Translations under genes and position numbers: made by a program
In this document: positions 52,825 to 61,133 of the stretch, in pieces
How positions within the stretch are numbered: position 1 is the first letter of the stretch
Layout of the letters: each line of letters begins with the position of its first letter
From: Chlorobiota bacterium
Lineage (GTDB): Bacteria; Bacteroidota; Bacteroidia; Bacteroidales; JAADGE01
NCBI GenBank assembly: GCA_013152535.1
Contig: JAADGE010000009.1
Span: 1,570-65,569, forward strand
Direction of reading: 5' to 3'
DNA length: 64,000 nt
The notes under the pieces: generated by a model
Seen by the model: only the letters and a program-made list of their open reading frames with translations
Database searches by the model: none
Told to the model about the DNA's origin: nothing

Positions 52825-55002
52825 ATGAATATTATTACAAGAAAAATTGATATAGGAAACGGCAGGATAGTAGAAATTGAAACCGGAAAATTAGCAAAGC
52901 AAGCAGACGGATCTGTTGTTGTAAAACAAGGAGACACAATGCTTTTGGCAACAGTTGTTTCCTCTAAAGATGCAAAAGAAAATGTTGATTTTATGCCTTT
53001 ATCGGTAGATTATCGCGAAAAATTTGCTGCCGCAGGGCGATTCCCGGGAGGTTTCAGAAAAAGAGAAGGCAGACCTTCTGATGAAGAAGTGCTTGTTGCA
53101 CGTTTAATCGACAGAGCTTTAAGACCTTTATTTCCTTCTGATTATCATGCAGATACATTCGTAAATGTTGAATTAATTTCAGCAGACAGAGAAAAAGAAG
53201 TTATGCCCGATGCCTTAGCCGGATTAGCTGCATCAGCAGCTCTTGCTGTGAGCGATATTCCGTTTCACGGACCGATTTCCGAAGTCCGAGTGGGAAAAAT
53301 TGACGGTGAATTAATTATAAATCCGACTTTCTCACAACTTGAAAACACGGAAATTGACATAATGCTTGCAGCAACCATAGACAATATTTTGATGGTTGAA
53401 GGTGATATGAAAGAAATTTCCGAAGAAGAAATGCTTGAAGCAATGAAATTCGGACACGAAGAAATTAAGAAACACTGCAAAGTTCAACTTGAAATGGCTG
53501 AAGAAAAAGGTGTAACCGAAAAAAGAGAATATCAACACGAGCAAGAAGATGATGAAGAACTTAGAGCAAAGTTAAAAGAAGCAGTAAGTAAAAAAATATA
53601 TGAAGTTGCGAAATCTGCTTTGTCAAAGCATGAACGTACCGAAAAATTTTCTGAAATAAAACAAGAATTTATTGACGGTTTTTCAGAAGAAGAACAAGAA
53701 GAATTAAATACAGTTCTTATTGGTAAATATTTTCATGATGAAGAAAAAGAGGTTGTGAGAAATATGGTTTTACACGACAGAATTCGTCTTGACGGAAGAA
53801 AATTAAACGAAATCAGACCTATTTGGTGTGAAATTGATTACTTGCCCGGTACTCACGGTTCGGCAATATTTACAAGAGGCGAAACTCAATCTTTATCCTC
53901 CGTAACGCTTGGTTCACCGCTTGATGTTCAAACTGTTGACAGACCTTTAGATCAAAGCAAATCGAATTTTTTATTGCATTATAATTTCTTGCCTTTTTCT
54001 ACAGGTGATGCAAGACCGTACAGAGGAACAGGAAGAAGAGAAATCGGACACGGAAATTTGGCTCACCGAGCACTTGCTTCTATGTTACCCGAAAAAGAAG
54101 ATAATCCTTATACAATAAGAATTGTTTCCGATATATTGGAATCAAACGGTTCGTCCTCAATGGCTACAGTTTGTGCAGGAACATTGGCACTGATGGATAC
54201 AGGGGTAAAAATAAAAAAACCGGTTTCCGGAATTGCAATGGGTTTAATTACTGATGAAAAAGGAAATTTTGCCGTATTATCAGATATTCTCGGAGACGAA
54301 GACCATCTTGGTGATATGGATTTTAAAGTTACGGGAACAACAGACGGAATAACTGCTTGCCAAATGGATATTAAAGTTGACGGACTTCCTTATGAAATTT
54401 TGTCTCAGGCGTTGACTCAGGCAAAAGAAGGACGAGCTCATATTTTAAATGAAATGTTGAAAACAATTTCCGAACCGAGAGCTGAATATAAATCGCATGT
54501 TCCCGGAATTACCTCAATAATTATACCGGGCGATTTGATAGGAACAGTTATCGGACCGGGAGGAAAAATGATACAACAAATTCAAAAAGATACCCAAACA
54601 ACCATTACAATTGAAGAAATTGACAGTTTGGGAAATGTTGTAATTATGGGACCGACACAAGATTCTATTAATGAAGCAAAAGATTATATAAAAGGCTTAA
54701 CCGCTGTCCCGGAAATCGGTCAGGTTTACACGGGCAAAGTGAAAAAAATTGTCGATTTTGGTGCTTTTGTTGAAATTTTGCCCGGTAAAGACGGTTTACT
54801 TCATATTTCTGAAATTTCTTATGAAAGAACAAATAAAGTCGAAGATGTTCTTAAAGAAGGTCAGGAAATTGAAGTTAAATTAATTGGTATTGATTCAAGA
54901 ACAAAAAAATTAAAATTATCTCGAAAAGCATTATTGCCGAAACCGGAACGAAAAAAAGATGATAAAAAAGATGATAAAAAAGACGATAAAAAAGAGATTT
55001 AG
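52825..55002 (+). CDS. pnp: polyribonucleotide nucleotidyltransferase (PNPase)
   Basis: Two RNase PH domains, a KH domain ([19 protein letters not shown]) and an S1 domain ([32 protein letters not shown]). The C-terminal tail is [16 protein letters not shown]. Confidence 0.95.
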
Positions 55003-55026: not shown

Positions 55027-55060
55027 AAAATCCTCGATTATTTATCTGAGGATTTTTTAT
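55027..55060 (+). terminator. Rho-independent terminator after pnp
   Basis: AAAATCCTCG / CTGAGGATTTT stem followed by T-run. Confidence 0.7.
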
Positions 55061-55279
55061 TTTAAAAAATATTACTGACATTTTATTAACATAAATAGTA
55101 AACTTTGTAATACTTTTTAAATTGACTTCTTGACATTTTGCATTTTTTAACCGACAAATTGTATGTTATGTAAAGTTTACGATGCCTTTTATTGACTTGA
55201 AAAATCGGAACTCCGGTATAATTTTTGGAATAGATTAATCGGAAAAACATTTTAAATCAAACAAAAGGAGGAACAAAAA

Positions 55280-56896
55280 ATGAAAAAATTATTTTTATTA
55301 ATCGGATTGGCACTTTTTATCTTGAGCTCGTGTACCACGACTCGAGTTGTGCATTATTATGACGATGCTTATCCGTCTTCAAAAACAACCACAGTTGTTG
55401 TAAAAGACAAAAATAATACAACTGTAGTTCAAAATGATACAGATAACGATGTGTATGATAATTATGCTGATGACAATTCAGCAGAAAATAATGTCTCAAA
55501 CTATTCAGATGATACCGGTAATTATTCGGATACAGTTGTTATTAATAATGACGGAAATAGTGATGTAGATGTTTATGTGTATAACAATTATCCGTCTTAC
55601 TCTTCGAGAATAAGGCACTTCTATGGTTCAACATACATAATCTCTGATTATAATGATGATTATTATACATACGGAGGTTGGAATGATTATTATTCTCCGT
55701 ATTATAGTACCGGATATTATTACAGACCATTTTACGGAAGATCATGGTATCAATGGAACAGACCGTATTACTATAATTCTTGGGGATACGGAAGCTATTG
55801 GAGCGGATACAATAATGGTTATTATGACGGGTATTATGACGGTTATTATAATAATTATTGGGGATACGGTGGTTATTATAACTACGGATATTACAATAAT
55901 TCTTATTACAATGACAGATATTCCAAAAATTATTCTGCATACGGAAACCGTTACAGAACAAATGCCGGTGAAAGAAGCAGCGGTACAAGAAATAATACTG
56001 TAAGGCATAGTTCCGTAAGCAAATCTGTTCCGGGAGATAAAAGAAATACGAACAGAAATAATGCTTTAAGAAATACAGGCTCTGACAGAAATACAACAGT
56101 AAGAAGATCAAATGTAAACAGAGTTAATACCGGAACGAATACCGAAAGAGTAAACTCAAGAACAAACAGTAACAGAGTTAATCACGGAACAAATTCAGGA
56201 AGGGTAGGGACAAGAACAAATAGTAACAGAGTTAATGCCGGGAATACAGGACGTGTAGATTCAAGAACAAATAATGACAGGTTTAATTCAGGATCTAACT
56301 CAAACAGAGTCGATTCTCGAAATAACAACCACAGAGTTAATACTGGAAATAACACAACTGTAAGAAGAAGTTCTTCAAGTACCAGCAGAAATTATAACAG
56401 AACGTCAACCGGCAGAAATACAGGTTACAACCCAAGAACTAATTATAATTCAGGTAATACCAGAACTTATAACTCGAACAGAAATCAGTCTTCCGGTCAT
56501 AACAGAACAAATTATAACAGACCGAATACCGGTTCTGATTCGAATTACAGCAGTCATTCAAGAACCAATAATCACAGTTCGTATTCAAGACCGAAAACAA
56601 ATAACAGCTCTAATTACAGCAGCAAAAATTCAGGAAACAGAAGAACTTATAATAACAGTTCACGATCAAACTCATCCGGAAATCGTTCAAGTTATAACAG
56701 CGGTTCACGTTCGAGTAGTTCACACTCTAATTTCAACAGCGGAAGTCGTTCAAACAATTCTCGTTCGAGCAGTTCACGTTCAAATTACAGCAGCGGTTCA
56801 CGTTCTTCCGGAAGTTCTCACTCAAGCGGAAGTCGCTCAGGCAGTTCGCGTTCAGGCAACAGTTCTTCAAGCTCTTCTCGTTCGGGAAGAAGATAA
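55280..56896 (+). CDS. extreme low-complexity lipoprotein (Y/N/G-rich block, then R/N/S/T repeat tail)
   Basis: Lipobox LFILSSC. Preceded by AAGGAGG (55265-55271). Residues about 100-215 are dominated by Y, N, G, D and S (YYNNYWGYGGYYNYGYYNNSYYNDRY). Then come RTNSNRVNxG-type repeats and an SGSRSS-type tail ending SRSGRR. Confidence 0.6.
   Translation: MKKLFLLIGLALFILSSCTTTRVVHYYDDAYPSSKTTTVVVKDKNNTTVVQNDTDNDVYDNYADDNSAENNVSNYSDDTGNYSDTVVINNDGNSDVDVYVYNNYPSYSSRIRHFYGSTYIISDYNDDYYTYGGWNDYYSPYYSTGYYYRPFYGRSWYQWNRPYYYNSWGYGSYWSGYNNGYYDGYYDGYYNNYWGYGGYYNYGYYNNSYYNDRYSKNYSAYGNRYRTNAGERSSGTRNNTVRHSSVSKSVPGDKRNTNRNNALRNTGSDRNTTVRRSNVNRVNTGTNTERVNSRTNSNRVNHGTNSGRVGTRTNSNRVNAGNTGRVDSRTNNDRFNSGSNSNRVDSRNNNHRVNTGNNTTVRRSSSSTSRNYNRTSTGRNTGYNPRTNYNSGNTRTYNSNRNQSSGHNRTNYNRPNTGSDSNYSSHSRTNNHSSYSRPKTNNSSNYSSKNSGNRRTYNNSSRSNSSGNRSSYNSGSRSSSSHSNFNSGSRSNNSRSSSSRSNYSSGSRSSGSSHSSGSRSGSSRSGNSSSSSSRSGRR
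56110..56345 (+). repeat. degenerate in-frame tandem repeats (about 51-54 nt period) inside the low-complexity gene
   Basis: CAAGAACAAACAGTAACAGAGTTAAT at 56157-56182 recurs with one mismatch at 56211-56236 and degenerately at 56262-56287. AACAGAGTTAAT-like cores also occur at about 56116, 56301 and 56329. Confidence 0.6.
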
Positions 56897-56904
56897 TATA
56901 AATT

Positions 56905-56939
56905 AAATGCCGAGTCCTTCGGTACACGACTCGGCATTT
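56905..56939 (+). terminator. 12-bp hairpin between the low-complexity gene and the barrel gene (weak terminator or processing/attenuation element)
   Basis: AAATGCCGAGTC / GACTCGGCATTT with an 11-nt loop. No extended U-tract follows. Confidence 0.4.
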
Positions 56940-56994
56940 AAAATTTAAGTTTCTGAAATAACAAATATCTTATTTCAATCTAAAAAACACAAAA

Positions 56995-58548
56995 ATGGTT
57001 TCAAAAAAAAATATTTTCATTATTGTGCTGATAATGAATTTTAGTTTTTCATTTGCACAAAATCATATCGATGCACTTCGATACAGTCAACAATTTTGGT
57101 CAGCAACGGCAAAATCTGATGCTATGGGTAATTCCTTATCGGCATTAGGTGCGGATATGTCTGCATTTTCAATAAATCCTGCCGGTATTGCAGTATTTAA
57201 AAATGCACAATTTACCTTAACACCTAATTTTATTATTAGCAATACTGACGGAACTTTTCTCGGAAGTTCGAGAAAAGAAAATAAGAATGGTTTTACGTTT
57301 TCAAATATTGCTTATGTTGGTGTTATGTATCCGAAAAATATATTTAAATCAGTAAATTTCGGAGTGGCATATAATTCTTATAATGATTACAGAAAACGAA
57401 CGGTTGTTTCCGGCACTAATCCTGACGGCTCAATCTTAGATTATTTGGTATATAACGCAAATTCCGACAGATACAGTGTTTTTAGAGAAGATTTGGCATA
57501 TAGAGGATGGTTGCTGAATTATGATGATACCAAGGGCGAATATTGGTCTTATGTAACTGATGATGCACGCTACGGTGAAACTCAAAGAAATGAGATTGTT
57601 ACAAAAGGCGGTGCCGGGGAATTTATTCTTTCATTAGGCGGAAATATTGCCGATAAATTATATCTCGGAATGAGTGTCGGTTTTGCATCAATCAATTATC
57701 GTGAAGAATCTCTTTATTCCGAATCAAATTTTCCGATTATTTATGCAGACGATTCAAATAATCCCGGGGACAGTATTATTGTCAGCCCGACACAATTGGA
57801 TTATTCGCAGACATTGGTATCTGAAGGCAACGGAATTAACGGAAAATTCGGTTTTATTTATCAACCGTTTAAATTCTTACGATTCGGCGGAGCTGTTCAC
57901 ACTTCAACAGGTTATAAATTTAATGATGATTATCAAACATCAATGTATATTGATTATCCTGTTGCTGATAACAACGGATATTATGATTATGAACCCGATA
58001 CGGCAAATACGTTTATATGGCGTTTGCAAACACCGTTCAGAGCAACTTTCGGTACGGCATTTATTTTTGATTCGCATCAAATAGGGAAATTCTATACGGT
58101 TCCTATGACTTTTACTATTGATTATGAATATGTTGATTATTCAAGAGCTCGATTAAAAGCAAATTATTCTTCAGATTATTCCTTTGATAATGAGAATTTT
58201 ACAGTTAAAAATTTGTATCAGGCAACTCACAGCATCAGAGCCGGAGCGGAATTTAATTTCGGTTTTATGAAATTGCGCGGAGGTTATGCAGTTTATACCA
58301 GTCCGTATAAAGGGAATACCGATTTTTTTGACGGAGCAAAATCTATTTATTCAGGCGGTATCGGATTTGCCGGAGAACATTCTTATATCGATTTTTCATA
58401 TTCTTATGCAAAAAACAACGAAACAATCTATCTTTATAATGCAACAAATGTTTTTCCGTACGATCCTATGGGGGGTAAAACCGAACCGACGGCAACTGCT
58501 AAAGATGTAAAACAATTTATTAAAGTAACTTTAGGATTGCGGTTTTAA
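56995..58548 (+). CDS. outer membrane beta-barrel protein, FadL/TodX/PorV-like
   Basis: Signal peptide ending SFAQ. N-terminal AKSDAMGNSLSALGADMSAFSINPAGIAVF resembles the FadL/PorV hatch motif. Alternating beta-strand pattern and a C-terminal LGLRF. Confidence 0.55.
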   Translation: MVSKKNIFIIVLIMNFSFSFAQNHIDALRYSQQFWSATAKSDAMGNSLSALGADMSAFSINPAGIAVFKNAQFTLTPNFIISNTDGTFLGSSRKENKNGFTFSNIAYVGVMYPKNIFKSVNFGVAYNSYNDYRKRTVVSGTNPDGSILDYLVYNANSDRYSVFREDLAYRGWLLNYDDTKGEYWSYVTDDARYGETQRNEIVTKGGAGEFILSLGGNIADKLYLGMSVGFASINYREESLYSESNFPIIYADDSNNPGDSIIVSPTQLDYSQTLVSEGNGINGKFGFIYQPFKFLRFGGAVHTSTGYKFNDDYQTSMYIDYPVADNNGYYDYEPDTANTFIWRLQTPFRATFGTAFIFDSHQIGKFYTVPMTFTIDYEYVDYSRARLKANYSSDYSFDNENFTVKNLYQATHSIRAGAEFNFGFMKLRGGYAVYTSPYKGNTDFFDGAKSIYSGGIGFAGEHSYIDFSYSYAKNNETIYLYNATNVFPYDPMGGKTEPTATAKDVKQFIKVTLGLRF

Positions 58549-58571: not shown

Positions 58572-58610
58572 AACTTTGCCGAAGTTTTAATCTTCGGCAA
58601 AGTTTATTTT
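58572..58610 (+). terminator. Rho-independent terminator after the barrel gene
   Basis: AACTTTGCCGAAG / CTTCGGCAAAGTT 13-bp stem followed by TATTTT. Confidence 0.75.
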
Positions 58611-60439: not shown

Positions 60440-61036
60440 TTAAATAAAACTTACAGCACTCGGTCCTTCATTAAATAACAAATCCAATATTGATAAATTC
60501 GGAACAAAATCAAATCTGTCGAAAAAAACTTGAGTATATTTTTTGAAAATAAATTTAGGAGAGTTCTTTTTCGGGTGTATCAAATTTCTGAAATCAGGAA
60601 AAGAGTATTCTTTTTTATATTCTTCGGTAAAAGTTAATTTTTTATCAATTTCCGATTCGGAAAGTAATTTGTGCAGTATTTCAATATTGTAATCCAATAA
60701 AAAAGTATATTTCTTTTCAAAAAAAGGCAAAAAAGCATCAATATAAAATTCAAAAAAGGGAGAAGACAGATATGCCGTTTTTAAACTTTTCAGGTGCAGA
60801 GATTGCCAATTGTTTTTATAGTCAATCTTTACATCTTTTATAAATTGTTTTTGTCCCGATTTTTTTACAATCGGAATACTTAAAGTTTGCTTGCCGCCGG
60901 GTGATAAAATTTCGCAACGATTTCTGTAAGTCTGTTTTATATAGTTTTCGTATTTCTCAATTATAACGGTTTCGGAATTAATTAACTCGGAAAAATAACC
61001 GATTGGAGGAAAATATGCTGCTGAAAAAATTTTCAT
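60440..61036 (-). CDS. WbqC family protein
   Basis: MKIFSAAYFPPIGYFSEL...YIKQTYRNRCEI matches the WbqC pattern. ATG 61036 is preferred over the GTG at 61054 used by the ORF track. Confidence 0.7.
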   Translation of the reverse strand: MKIFSAAYFPPIGYFSELINSETVIIEKYENYIKQTYRNRCEILSPGGKQTLSIPIVKKSGQKQFIKDVKIDYKNNWQSLHLKSLKTAYLSSPFFEFYIDAFLPFFEKKYTFLLDYNIEILHKLLSESEIDKKLTFTEEYKKEYSFPDFRNLIHPKKNSPKFIFKKYTQVFFDRFDFVPNLSILDLLFNEGPSAVSFI

Positions 61037-61133
61037 AGAAAAAAATAACTTCACAAAAGTAACAAATAAGATAAAATTTTGTAAAATATTTACGATTTCC
61101 TATTTATAATTTTTCTAAATAAGAATAAATTCG

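What the first reader, a model, noticed from the sequence alone, without database searches (positions are those of the whole stretch)
55280..56896. 538-aa lipoprotein of extreme low complexity: tyrosine/asparagine/glycine block followed by arginine/serine/asparagine repeat tail
Seen: a normal lipoprotein signal (LFILSSC) is followed by an N/D/T/V-rich stretch. Then comes a block made almost only of Y, N, G, D, S, W and R (YYSPYYSTGYYYRPFYGRSWYQWNRPYYYNSWGYGSYWSGYNNGYYDGYYDGYYNNYWGYGGYYNYGYYNNSYYNDRY). This is followed by degenerate repeats of about 17-18 aa (RTNSNRVNxGTNxGRVxS), encoded by DNA repeats with a 51-54-nt period. The C-terminal tail of roughly 190 aa is essentially R, S, N, T, G, Y and H, with (by my reading) a single acidic residue, and ends SGSRSGSSRSGNSSSSSSRSGRR. 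The compositional bias leaves four of the six reading frames open over 55.5-56.1 kb. Established: Y/G/N-rich segments are typical of prion-like, phase-separating or amyloid-forming proteins, and RS-rich tails bind polyanions such as nucleic acids. Inference: this may be a periplasmic or surface matrix-forming or polyanion-binding protein, for example binding eDNA, polyphosphate or acidic glycans. I know of no characterised bacterial homologue.
Basis: partly seen in the sequence, partly recalled or inferred. Interest (0 to 1): 0.6.

Follow-up and report, generated by a model that had tools for sequence, protein, structure and literature searches.

The report
Disordered lipoprotein paired with FadL barrel
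This is a real, conserved gene for an almost entirely unstructured, tyrosine- and arginine-rich outer-membrane lipoprotein that, throughout the Bacteroidota, is encoded directly in front of its own FadL-type barrel; nobody knows what the pair does, so it is a good target for cell-envelope biology.

Summary
ORF 55280-56896 (+) encodes a 538-aa lipoprotein (S 20%, N 18%, Y 12%, R 11%; net +36). It has the lowest entropy of 1932 long ORFs in this genome. It is not spurious. Relatives keep the frame open, all indels are in frame, and dN/dS is 0.16-0.22, below 0.3 in every segment.

It belongs to an unnamed family with no Pfam, NCBIfam or PDB match. AlphaFold2 predicts disorder (pLDDT 43). The gene always lies directly upstream of one FadL-fold barrel (here 56995-58548). 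That barrel was found in 210 of 301 sampled Bacteroidota genomes, including Flavobacterium, Pedobacter, Rhodothermus, Balneolaceae and Ignavibacteria.

Four features are conserved:
- a lipobox followed by a short peptide (DDVYY-like);
- an acidic, aromatic N-terminal part;
- a polycationic Ser/Arg tail ending in GRR;
- no surface-export signal (0 of 39).

Asparagine richness is specific to this AT-rich lineage.

The positional counterpart in F. johnsoniae, Fjoh_4940/4941 beside proS, is detected by proteomics and rises on TamL depletion (PMC12045153).

Function is unknown. My best guess is a barrel-docked, periplasm-facing polycationic tether or envelope-homeostasis factor.

The scan has reported this family before on other genomes, with the same reading.

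The parts
55267..55272 (+). AGGAGG Shine-Dalgarno-like hexamer 8 nt upstream of the start codon
   Evidence: Read from the sequence. Only 8 of 1930 ORFs of 200 aa or more in this genome have AGGAGG at -22..-4. It is kept in 8 of 9 orthologues.
55280..56896 (+). Coding sequence of the 538-aa disordered lipoprotein
   Evidence: ORF. Open-frame orthologues occur in 20 of 24 genomes of the same family. dN/dS is 0.16-0.22. AlphaFold2 mean pLDDT is 42.9, with only the signal helix ordered.
55280..55333 (+). Signal peptide with lipobox (residues 1-18, ILSSC)
   Evidence: Read from the sequence. Cys18 is invariant in the 25-member alignment A1.
55334..55684 (+). Conserved post-Cys peptide (TTTRVVHYYDDAYPSS), acidic Asp/Tyr/Thr/Val linker (net -13) and the SRIRHFY motif (residues 19-135)
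   Evidence: D28, D29, Y31, Y107, R110 and F114 are invariant or nearly invariant. dN/dS is lowest here, 0.08-0.15. An SRIRRFH-type motif occurs in 15 of 48 members against 0.9 expected. Profile-profile matches to the Flavobacterium-type and CYTQL-type partners cover only this N-terminal end.
55685..55999 (+). Aromatic low-complexity block (residues 136-240: Y 32%, G 14%, N 14%, W 5%)
   Evidence: Composition. An aromatic/Gly block is present in every lineage: Tyr-rich here and Trp-rich in Flavobacterium. dN/dS is 0.12-0.25.
56000..56893 (+). Polycationic Ser/Asn/Arg/Thr tail (residues 241-538, net +43) ending in GRR
   Evidence: Composition. dN/dS is 0.18-0.29. The C-terminal G536 R537 R538 are invariant or nearly invariant. 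79% of 48 members have at least two Arg in the last six residues, against 2.6% of this genome's ORFs.
56104..56287 (+). 54-nt tandem repeat encoding 17-18-aa NRVNxGTNxGRVxSRTNS units
   Evidence: Tandem Repeats Finder: period 54, 3.5 copies, 74% matches. Copy number differs among genus orthologues, always in frame.
56903..56941 (+). Stable hairpin (14-bp stem) just after the lipoprotein stop codon, in the 98-nt spacer before the barrel gene
   Evidence: Folding z-score is -4.67; 0 of 200 shuffles fold as well. All 9 orthologues have a hairpin at the same place with a different sequence.
56995..58548 (+). Partner gene: 517-aa FadL-fold outer-membrane barrel
   Evidence: AlphaFold2 pLDDT 90.9, pTM 0.85. 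Foldseek gives E. coli FadL at 2.9e-16 and BtBamG at 7e-15. A homologue lies directly downstream of every lipoprotein homologue examined. Found in 210 of 301 phylum genomes, mostly as a single copy.
58572..58604 (+). Intrinsic terminator closing the two-gene unit
   Evidence: 13-bp stem with 6 G-C pairs, followed by a T run.

Best explanation
Shown:
- The ORF is a genuine gene under purifying selection.
- It belongs to an unnamed, phylum-wide family of intrinsically disordered lipoproteins.
- The gene is always encoded immediately upstream of one particular FadL-fold barrel.
- The two genes form one unit. It has its own upstream region, an inter-gene hairpin, and a terminator after the barrel.

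Inferred:
- The protein is lipidated at Cys18 and anchored in the inner leaflet of the outer membrane, facing the periplasm, because it has no surface-export signal.
- Its few conserved short motifs dock it to the partner barrel. These are the peptide just after the lipid anchor through DDxY, and the SRIRRFH-like motif. BamH is held by BamG in a comparable way.
- The rest of the chain acts as a polymer. An acidic, Tyr/Trp/Gly-rich proximal part sits at the membrane interface. A polycationic Ser/Arg tail of 200-300 residues reaches into the periplasm.
- The tail binds anionic envelope material by many weak contacts. Candidates are peptidoglycan carboxylates, anionic lipid head groups, the acidic barrel, and the acidic blocks of neighbouring copies through Tyr-Arg contacts.

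Most likely role: non-covalent cohesion between outer membrane and cell wall, or envelope homeostasis, in a phylum that lacks Braun's lipoprotein.

My odds: real gene and barrel-partner unit about 0.9; periplasm-facing about 0.65; polycationic tether or envelope-cohesion role about 0.3. The single confidence figure given (0.4) is for the statement as a whole, mechanism included.
For: Real gene:
- Open-frame orthologues occur in 20 of 24 same-family genomes.
- All indels are in frame. dN/dS is 0.16-0.22 overall and below 0.3 in each of four segments.

Family size:
- The profile search finds 3680 cluster representatives at E<=1e-3 and 440 at E<=1e-30.

Obligate pairing:
- A barrel homologue lies directly downstream in genus, family and distant contigs.
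- At 38 of 40 barrel loci sampled one per lineage across the phylum, the upstream same-strand gene encodes a protein of the same architecture.
- Named members include Flavobacterium, Pedobacter, Roseivirga, Flavisolibacter, Rhodothermus marinus, Balneolaceae and Ignavibacteria.

Partner fold:
- FadL fold, with the NPA hatch motif invariant.

Disorder:
- pLDDT is below 50 for 495 of 538 residues.

Orientation:
- 0 of 39 lipobox-bearing members have two or more acidic residues at +1 to +6 after Cys.
- Fjoh_4940 is listed as SPII and 'periplasm-facing'.

Conserved charge architecture:
- Charge segregation has median z -6.6 against shuffles.
- Centroids along the chain are 0.32 for acidic, 0.33 for aromatic and 0.61 for basic residues.
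- The N-terminal part has mean net charge -6.9, the C-terminal part +22 and the barrel -14.
- Lipoprotein and barrel net charges are anti-correlated: Spearman -0.49, n=48, not corrected for phylogeny.

Expression and envelope link (papers):
- Gene order is Fjoh_4939 proS, Fjoh_4940 lipoprotein, Fjoh_4941 FadL homologue.
- Fjoh_4940 averages 46 spectral counts in membrane fractions.
- On TamL depletion the two rise 2.6-fold and 5.6-fold (PMC12045153).
- Fjoh_4941 is found in vesicles, but Fjoh_4940 is not (bioRxiv 10.1101/2024.10.17.618404). Exclusion from vesicles is what one expects of a wall-tethered protein.
Against: - No direct evidence for a physical complex, for orientation, or for any ligand.
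- Orthology with Fjoh_4940/4941 rests on gene order, and on a Flavobacterium genome with the same proS-lipoprotein-barrel arrangement. The F. johnsoniae sequences were not compared here.
- Beyond the first 50 residues or so, homology between lineages cannot be shown by profiles. The signal peptide also inflates those scores.
- Lack of a canonical export signal does not exclude export through the dedicated barrel.
- The charge anti-correlation is not phylogenetically corrected.
- The C-terminus is Arg, not Lys, so a covalent Lpp-like link is unlikely.
- Tail length varies from about 190 to 590 aa, so it is not a precise spacer.
- The barrel keeps FadL transport hallmarks (the NPA motif and a break in strand 3), which fits a transport role equally well.
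Confidence: 0.4

Rival explanations
1. The lipoprotein is an accessory of a working FadL-type channel. The barrel moves a hydrophobic molecule (fatty acid, lipid, aromatic compound) through its lateral opening. The disordered aromatic lipoprotein acts as a periplasmic acceptor, gate or selective aromatic 'phase' at the channel exit.
For: - The barrel has the FadL fold.
- The NPA hatch motif is invariant.
- Strand 3 is broken at residues 131-134 in the model, where FadL has its kink.
- Many homologues reach Pfam Toluene_X and are named OmpP1/FadL family transporter.
- Both proteins rise when the lipid-linked TamL is depleted.
- Blocks rich in Tyr and Trp favour membrane interfaces and hydrophobic ligands (established physical chemistry).
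Against: - No FadL transporter with a known role needs a lipoprotein partner.
- A cationic Ser/Arg tail of 200-300 residues has no obvious role in handling hydrophobic cargo.
- In Bacteroidota, FadL-fold barrels have repeatedly become protein-binding anchors (BamG, PorV; PMC12578637, PMC12611786).
- The N-terminus of the barrel is about 7 residues longer before NPA than I recall for FadL, and it is highly conserved. This resembles the non-transporting BamG (inference, not measured here).
Confidence: 0.2
2. The barrel exports or holds the lipoprotein at the cell surface. There its Tyr/Gly block and Arg/Ser tail form a matrix, or bind eDNA, polyphosphate or acidic glycans, for adhesion or aggregation.
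For: - Other FadL-fold barrels of this phylum hold surface proteins: BamG-BamH and PorV-cargo.
- Bacteroidota BamA carries a disordered Tyr/Gly/Asn-rich extracellular loop. Such sequence therefore does occur on the surface.
- The composition suits polyanion binding and self-association.
Against: - 0 of 39 members carry the acidic lipoprotein export signal.
- Fjoh_4940 is classed as periplasm-facing. It is not detected in vesicles, whereas surface lipoproteins and the barrel are.
- The pair is a single-copy core module next to housekeeping genes in lineages from gut to hot springs. That is unlike niche-specific adhesins.
Confidence: 0.12
3. The pair is an alternative or auxiliary module of the Bacteroidota BAM machinery, comparable to the BamG2-BamH2 operon. 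It would help in folding or sorting of outer-membrane proteins or lipoproteins.
For: - BamG is a FadL-fold barrel that binds the N-terminus of a lipoprotein, and BamG2/BamH2 form an operon.
- Foldseek matches BtBamG, PgBamG and FjBamG almost as well as FadL.
- The barrel, like BamG, is near-universal in the phylum.
Against: - Profiles of the barrel hit no BamG chain in the PDB, even at E<=10.
- F. johnsoniae BamG is Fjoh_1412, not Fjoh_4941, and neither Fjoh_4940 nor Fjoh_4941 is among the purified BAM subunits.
- BamH is a folded surface lipoprotein with an export signal. This protein is disordered and has none.
Confidence: 0.08
4. The ORF is spurious and stays open only because of repetitive, compositionally biased DNA.
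For: - Low complexity leaves four frames open over about 55745-56000.
- There is no family or structure match.
Against: - This frame is kept open over 400-620 codons in more than 20 genomes at 45-86% identity.
- Indels are in frame and dN/dS is 0.16-0.22.
- The lipobox and motifs are conserved.
- The positional counterpart is detected as a protein in F. johnsoniae.
Confidence: 0.01

Closest known systems
Fjoh_4940 (lipoprotein, function unknown) and Fjoh_4941 (FadL homologue) of Flavobacterium johnsoniae, next to proS Fjoh_4939 (PMC12045153)
   Same: - Same gene order, lipoprotein then FadL-type barrel, as in distant relatives of the window pair that also sit beside proS.
- SPII signal and no export signal.
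- A Flavobacterium genome carries the barrel orthologue (E about 1e-87) with a partner of 356 aa: aromatic/Gly-rich with an Arg/Ser/Gly tail ending GGRRG.
   Different: - The F. johnsoniae sequences were not compared here.
- The Flavobacterium-type partner is shorter and Trp-rich rather than Tyr-rich. It is alignable only over the first 50 residues or so.
- In this window's genus the pair follows pnp, not proS.
- The paper only notes a possible functional link; nothing is characterised.
BamG-BamH of the Bacteroidota BAM complex, and the BamG2-BamH2 operon (PMC12578637, PMC12611786)
   Same: - A FadL-fold barrel with a dedicated lipoprotein partner whose N-terminal region the barrel binds.
- An operon arrangement exists (Bt1785/Bt1786).
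- The structural match to BamG is E 7e-15.
   Different: - The barrel is not a BamG by sequence; profiles give no PDB hit.
- BamH is folded, surface-exposed and has an export signal. This partner is predicted fully disordered and has none.
- It is not a subunit of the purified F. johnsoniae BAM.
E. coli FadL / TodX / TbuX hydrophobic-compound channels (PF03349)
   Same: - FadL-type barrel fold with an N-terminal hatch and NPA motif.
- The profile reaches TbuX at E 0.0015.
   Different: - 12-15% identity.
- About 90 residues longer.
- The window protein itself does not reach the Pfam model.
- The known channels work without a lipoprotein partner.
Tyr/Gly/Asn-rich disordered extracellular loop 3 of Bacteroidota BamA (PMC12578637)
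   Same: - Same odd composition (Tyr, Gly, Asn) in a flexible segment of an outer-membrane protein of the same phylum.
- Its function is also unknown.
   Different: - It is a 38-residue loop on the cell surface, not a 100-residue block of a lipoprotein.
- It has no cationic tail.
FUS-family low-complexity proteins (Tyr-rich prion-like domain plus Arg-rich domain; sticker-and-spacer phase separation)
   Same: - Tyr (12%) and Arg (11%) are spread in Ser/Gly/Asn spacers.
- Separate aromatic and cationic blocks, and predicted disorder.
   Different: - No homology.
- Bacterial, lipid-anchored and extracytoplasmic.
- Phase separation is untested.
Braun's lipoprotein Lpp (outer membrane to peptidoglycan tether of Enterobacteria)
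   Same: An abundant outer-membrane lipoprotein facing the periplasm with a basic C-terminal end. This is the proposed functional analogy.
   Different: - Lpp is a 58-residue helical trimer linked covalently through its C-terminal Lys.
- This protein is 5 to 10 times longer, disordered and ends in Arg-Arg.
- Any wall binding would be non-covalent and is untested.

Membership tests
Bacterial lipoprotein (signal peptidase II substrate) | N-terminal signal peptide ending in a lipobox [LVI][ASTVI][GAS]C | tested here: met
   MKKLFLLIGLALFILSSC has Cys18, which is invariant in A1.
Bacterial lipoprotein (signal peptidase II substrate) | Actual lipidation and cleavage by Lgt/Lsp | not testable with these tools
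   Needs biochemistry. The F. johnsoniae counterpart is listed as SPII in PMC12045153.
Unnamed Fjoh_4940-type disordered lipoprotein family | Encoded immediately upstream, on the same strand, of the orthologous FadL-fold barrel | tested here: met
   There is a 98-nt spacer to the barrel at 56995. The same arrangement holds in all relatives examined.
Unnamed Fjoh_4940-type disordered lipoprotein family | Conserved post-Cys peptide with a DD[VIL]Y-type motif, an aromatic/Gly block, then a cationic Ser/Arg tail with an Arg-rich C-terminus | tested here: met
   The window protein has HYYDDAY, a block with 32% Tyr, and a tail of net +43 ending GRR.
Unnamed Fjoh_4940-type disordered lipoprotein family | Location next to proS | tested here: not met
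   In this genus the upstream gene is pnp. proS adjacency holds in other lineages. This is a frequent context rather than a defining trait.
FadL/OmpP1/TodX family (PF03349), for the partner barrel | Match to the Pfam model above its gathering score | tested here: not met
   The window barrel gives no PF03349 hit, and the family finds nothing in this genome at E<=0.01. 2 of 15 aligned homologues and many database homologues do match.
FadL/OmpP1/TodX family (PF03349), for the partner barrel | FadL-type barrel fold with an N-terminal hatch carrying the NPA motif | tested here: met
   The AlphaFold2 model has pLDDT 90.9. Foldseek top hits are FadL, TodX and BamG at E 1e-16 to 1e-10. N61 P62 are invariant and A63 nearly so.
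BamG-BamH (Bacteroidota BAM subunits) | Barrel orthologous to BamG by sequence | tested here: not met
   Profiles A2 and A3 hit no BamG chain of the solved B. thetaiotaomicron, P. gingivalis or F. johnsoniae BAM structures, even at E<=10. FjBamG is Fjoh_1412.
BamG-BamH (Bacteroidota BAM subunits) | Partner is a folded surface lipoprotein with an acidic export signal after the Cys | tested here: not met
   The partner is predicted disordered. 0 of 39 members have two or more acidic residues at +1 to +6.
PorV / type IX secretion shuttle | Match to PorV-type models, and a partner carrying a T9SS C-terminal domain | tested here: not met
   The PorV2 model scores 16 bits against a cut-off of 325. 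The lipoprotein matches no Pfam or NCBIfam family and ends in a low-complexity Ser/Arg tail, so no T9SS sorting domain was found.
Phase-separating prion-like / FUS-like low-complexity proteins | Disordered sequence with multivalent Tyr and Arg stickers in polar spacers | tested here: met
   62 Tyr and 57 Arg in 538 residues, with Ser/Asn/Gly/Thr spacers and pLDDT below 50. This shows composition only.
Phase-separating prion-like / FUS-like low-complexity proteins | Demonstrated condensation or gelation | not testable with these tools
   Needs purified protein.
Braun's lipoprotein-type covalent wall tether | C-terminal Lys for L,D-transpeptidase linkage; helical trimer | tested here: not met
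   The protein ends in Arg-Arg, and most members end in R, G or N. No helices are predicted.

The most novel reading that the evidence does not exclude
The family is a new kind of envelope component. It is a lipid-anchored, fully disordered 'sticker-and-spacer' polymer that a dedicated FadL-fold barrel holds at the outer membrane. Its Tyr-rich and Arg-rich blocks form a multivalent periplasmic gel or brush. This layer ties the outer membrane non-covalently to the cell wall, or forms a selective aromatic phase under the channel. It would be the Bacteroidota answer to the missing Braun's lipoprotein.
Probability: 0.2. Interest if true: 0.85.

Novelty: new variant of a known kind. Interest (0 to 1): 0.6.

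Why it matters
The Bacteroidota include major gut, oral, soil and marine bacteria. Their outer membrane is built differently from the E. coli model.

This pair has three notable properties:
- It is found in nearly all sampled genera, mostly as a single copy.
- It is detected by proteomics in F. johnsoniae.
- It responds to disturbance of outer-membrane homeostasis.

Despite this, it has no name, no curated family model and no known function.

A conserved protein that is disordered from end to end, evolves fast in sequence, and keeps its charge and aromatic architecture over a whole phylum is rare in bacteria. It would be a clean system for asking what disordered polymers do in the periplasm.

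The question is directly testable in F. johnsoniae or B. thetaiotaomicron with existing genetics.

Tried and rejected
- **Family libraries.** Pfam and NCBIfam scans of the protein and of 25 family members gave nothing significant.
- **PDB by sequence.** The only hit for the lipoprotein profile was a compositional match to an RS-rich CWF21 protein.
- **Structure of the lipoprotein.** AlphaFold2 with a 25-sequence alignment gave no fold. It was therefore not worth a fold search.
- **Alignment-based locus search.** It failed because no stretch was conserved enough. The single-protein scan found only two close relatives.
- **Sequence searches alone.** They understate the family. The lipoprotein profile found 27 of 301 phylum genomes, against 210 for the barrel. 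I therefore walked upstream of the barrel instead.
- **Profile-profile comparison between lineage types.** It aligns only the signal peptide and the post-Cys peptide. Deeper homology is inferred from position and architecture, not shown.
- **Loop-side assignment in the barrel.** I tried to sort the barrel's loops into periplasmic and extracellular sides from the secondary-structure string, to ask where its negative charge sits. The strand count was ambiguous without coordinates, so I dropped it.
- **Rejected readings.** Spurious ORF; BamG/BamH orthologue; PorV; covalent Lpp-like tether; asparagine richness as a functional trait.
Full report
**1. Observation**

- The ORF at 55280-56896 (+) is as described.
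- Its product has 538 residues: S 20%, N 18%, Y 12%, R 11%, G 9%, T 8%; net charge +36.
- The lipobox ILSSC places the lipidated Cys at residue 18.
- Residues 19-135 are acidic (net -13) and rich in D, Y, N, V and T.
- Residues 241-350 hold about four 17-18-aa repeats, encoded by a 54-nt tandem repeat at 56104-56287.
- Residues 351-538 contain a single acidic residue and end in GRR.
- Four frames are open at once only over about 55745-56000, which is narrower than stated.
- Among 1932 ORFs of at least 200 aa in the 3.3-Mb genome, this one has the lowest sequence entropy. It also has by far the highest Y+N+S+R+G+T fraction, 0.77 against 0.55 for the next. There is no look-alike elsewhere in the genome.

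**2. It is a real gene**

- A six-frame search of 40 related genomes finds an open frame of 400-620 codons in 20 of 24 genomes of the same family, at 45-86% identity.
- In nine genus orthologues every indel is a multiple of three. The repeat number varies, and the C-terminus stays SRSGR(R).
- Nei-Gojobori dN/dS against three orthologues is 0.16-0.22 overall. By segment it is 0.08-0.15 for the N-terminal part, 0.12-0.25 for the aromatic block, 0.18-0.29 for the repeat region and 0.18-0.22 for the tail.

**3. What surrounds it**

- Upstream lie rpsO and pnp, then a 277-nt spacer.
- Downstream, after 98 nt, lies a 517-aa signal-peptide protein (56995-58548), followed by a strong terminator at 58572-58604.
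- pnp-lipoprotein-barrel is kept in six of the genus genomes examined. Lipoprotein-barrel is kept in every relative examined.
- Distant homologues from metagenomes (28-34% identity) share these features:
  - the lipobox;
  - a YDDVYYS motif;
  - a YSSRLRRFH motif;
  - an aromatic/Gly block;
  - YYGHR;
  - a long polar cationic region with SYSxPSRS-like repeats;
  - a C-terminal GRR.
- Their contigs show the same downstream barrel of about 500 aa. Some of these barrels carry Pfam Toluene_X. proS is divergent upstream, and a WbqC-like gene often lies downstream.

**4. The partner barrel**

- Sequence models barely see it. The hits are UPF0164 at E 7e-4, PorV2 at 16 bits against a cut-off of 325, and no PF03349 hit.
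- Profiles of homologues reach the FadL-family toluene channel TbuX at E 0.0015, and nothing else in the PDB.
- Many database homologues carry PF03349 and are named OmpP1/FadL family transporter.
- The AlphaFold2 model is confident: pLDDT 90.9, pTM 0.85.
- Foldseek puts E. coli FadL first (2.9e-16). Next come the Pseudomonas FadL homologue, TodX, and the BamG chains of the three solved Bacteroidota BAM complexes.
- The hatch NPA motif is invariant.
- It is therefore a distinct clade of FadL-fold barrels. It is not BamG, because sequence profiles miss every BamG chain and F. johnsoniae BamG is Fjoh_1412. It is not PorV either.

**5. How wide the pair is**

- I searched a sample of 301 genomes of the phylum, each at least 90% complete.
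- The barrel profile finds 210 genomes and 130 of 144 genera, nearly always as one copy.
- The lipoprotein profile finds only 27 genomes.
- I then fetched DNA around 40 barrel loci, mostly one or two per lineage. In 38 of them the gene just upstream on the same strand encodes a protein of the same build.
- That build consists of:
  - a signal peptide, in most members with a lipobox;
  - a lineage-typical post-Cys peptide: CTTQYQ, CSTAYKT, CGSYQ or CYTQL;
  - a DD[VIL]Y-type motif;
  - 8-16% Tyr (in Flavobacterium, Trp-rich WGWN repeats instead);
  - a Ser/Gly/Arg-rich remainder;
  - an Arg-rich end.
- Lengths run from 190 to 590 aa.
- The whole-library profile search counts 3680 cluster representatives at E<=1e-3 and 440 at E<=1e-30.
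- Named members place the pair in Flavobacterium, Pedobacter, Roseivirga, Flavisolibacter, Cryomorphaceae, Chitinophagales, Rhodothermus marinus (barrel Rmar_2269), Balneolaceae and Ignavibacteria.
- Every lipoprotein record that carries a meaningful name is called 'hypothetical protein'.
- One family, 63 sampled genomes of 1.8-2.8 Mb, has neither gene.
- The window's own lineage is close to MAGs labelled 'Bacteroidetes bacterium Dive96_bin10.164' and 'uncultured Draconibacterium sp.'.

**6. What is conserved and what is not**

- N+Q ranges from 2 to 32% across members.
- Conserved features:
  - The Cys and the peptide after it. Profile-profile probability to the Flavobacterium-type and CYTQL-type partners is 99%, but over fewer than 50 columns and inflated by the signal peptide.
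  - An SRIRRFH-type motif, found in 15 of 48 members against 0.9 expected. The window has the variant SRIRHFY.
  - The aromatic block.
  - A diblock charge pattern. Acidic and aromatic residues sit in the first third, and basic residues in the last two thirds. Sequence charge decoration is far below shuffles: median z -6.6, and 82% of members below -3.
  - An Arg-rich C-terminus. 79% of members have at least two Arg in the last six residues, against 2.6% of this genome's ORFs.
- None of 39 lipobox-bearing members has two or more acidic residues at positions +1 to +6. This is the criterion the BAM paper uses for surface lipoproteins.
- The barrels are net acidic, mean -14. Their charge is anti-correlated with that of the partner: Spearman -0.49, n=48. 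This is uncorrected for relatedness and so only suggestive.
- AlphaFold2 predicts no structure beyond the signal helix; 495 of 538 residues are below pLDDT 50.

**7. Link to published work**

- In the F. johnsoniae TamL study (PMC12045153), Fjoh_4939 is proline-tRNA ligase. Fjoh_4940 is an SPII 'periplasm-facing lipoprotein, function unknown'. Fjoh_4941 is an OMPP1/FadL/TodX barrel.
- That is the gene order of the distant relatives found here. It is also the order in a Flavobacterium genome of my sample (CP109995), where the barrel orthologue and a 356-aa partner follow proS.
- I did not compare the F. johnsoniae sequences themselves.
- Fjoh_4940 averages 46 spectral counts in membrane fractions, similar to BamG. 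Fjoh_4941 averages 19.
- On TamL depletion they rise 2.6-fold and 5.6-fold. The authors note only that proximity 'might indicate a functional link'.
- The preprint adds that Fjoh_4941, but not Fjoh_4940, is seen in vesicles.
- The two BAM papers give the nearest structural precedent: BamG, a FadL-fold barrel, grips the N-terminal region of the lipoprotein BamH, and BamG2/BamH2 form an operon.
- They also describe a disordered Tyr/Gly/Asn-rich loop in Bacteroidota BamA of unknown function.

**8. Mechanism (inference)**

- The pattern is that of a disordered protein with a few short docking motifs and a long functional polymer.
- I propose the following:
  - The anchor-proximal peptide and the SRIRRFH-like motif bind the barrel.
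  - The aromatic block lies at the membrane interface.
  - The cationic tail reaches into the periplasm and binds anionic material by many weak contacts, including Tyr-Arg contacts between copies.
- Several points favour a non-covalent tether between outer membrane and wall, or an envelope-homeostasis role (about 0.3):
  - the absence of an export signal;
  - the exclusion from vesicles while the barrel is present;
  - the rise when outer-membrane homeostasis is disturbed;
  - the lack of Braun's lipoprotein outside a few proteobacterial groups (established knowledge).
- Rivals:
  - accessory of a working hydrophobic-substrate channel (0.2);
  - a BAM-like auxiliary module (0.08);
  - spurious ORF (0.01).
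- The remainder is 'something else'.

**9. Novelty and earlier notes**

- The family is undescribed in curated libraries and is mentioned once in passing in the literature.
- The kind, a FadL-fold barrel with a dedicated lipoprotein in Bacteroidota, is known. The disordered partner is a new variant of it.
- After reaching the above, I looked up the scan's earlier notes. At least eight follow-ups on other genomes describe the same family, with the same closest-known items, so this window is a further member.
- New points here:
  - the pnp context instead of proS;
  - the per-segment selection figures;
  - the conserved charge segregation and the barrel/partner charge anti-correlation;
  - the 0-of-39 export-signal count;
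  - the conserved inter-gene hairpin and the rare AGGAGG site. Another first-reader note on this same stretch had flagged both.

Noticed in passing
window 55267-55272: An AGGAGG hexamer lies 8 nt upstream of the lipoprotein start. Only 8 of 1930 long ORFs in this genome have one at -22..-4. It is kept in 8 of 9 orthologues. This is odd in a phylum whose ribosomes largely ignore Shine-Dalgarno sequences (PMC13000453 abstract).
   Followed up: partly
window 56903-56941: A 14-bp hairpin lies right after the lipoprotein stop codon (z -4.67). All nine orthologues have a hairpin at this place with a different sequence, some followed by T runs. It could be a partial terminator or a transcript-stabilising 3' end that sets a lipoprotein-to-barrel ratio above one. 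In F. johnsoniae the ratio is 46 to 19 spectral counts.
   Followed up: partly
window 60440-61054 (-): A WbqC-like gene (PF08889, E 6e-38) lies two genes downstream of the barrel. A WbqC-like gene also sits directly downstream of the barrel in distant relatives (L013, L015/L016) and nearby in L019 and L021. It may be a third conserved neighbour.
   Followed up: partly
window 52825-55002 and relatives L002-L010: In this genus the pair follows pnp rather than proS, the usual neighbour elsewhere in the phylum. The proS linkage is therefore not required for function.
   Followed up: yes
whole genome G000: Pfam Toluene_X (PF03349) finds nothing in this 98%-complete genome at E<=0.01. Yet the FadL-type BAM subunit BamG is reported as near-universal in free-living Bacteroidota. 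Either BamG here is too divergent for the model or it lies in an unassembled part.
   Followed up: no
phylum sample, family f37 (63 genomes of 1.8-2.8 Mb): One family of the phylum has neither the barrel nor the lipoprotein in any of 63 sampled complete genomes. I did not establish its identity.
   Followed up: no
window 55030-55059: A hairpin with flanking A and T runs (AAAAAAAATCCTC...GAGGATTTTTT) lies just after pnp. It looks like the pnp terminator and sets the lipoprotein gene apart as its own transcription unit. The consensus scan did not flag it.
   Followed up: no
L034-L037 (Flavobacterium-type partners): In Flavobacteriaceae the aromatic block is built of Trp-rich WGWN/GWGW repeats instead of Tyr. 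The tail ends GGRGGRRG. Aromatic character is conserved, not tyrosine as such.
   Followed up: partly
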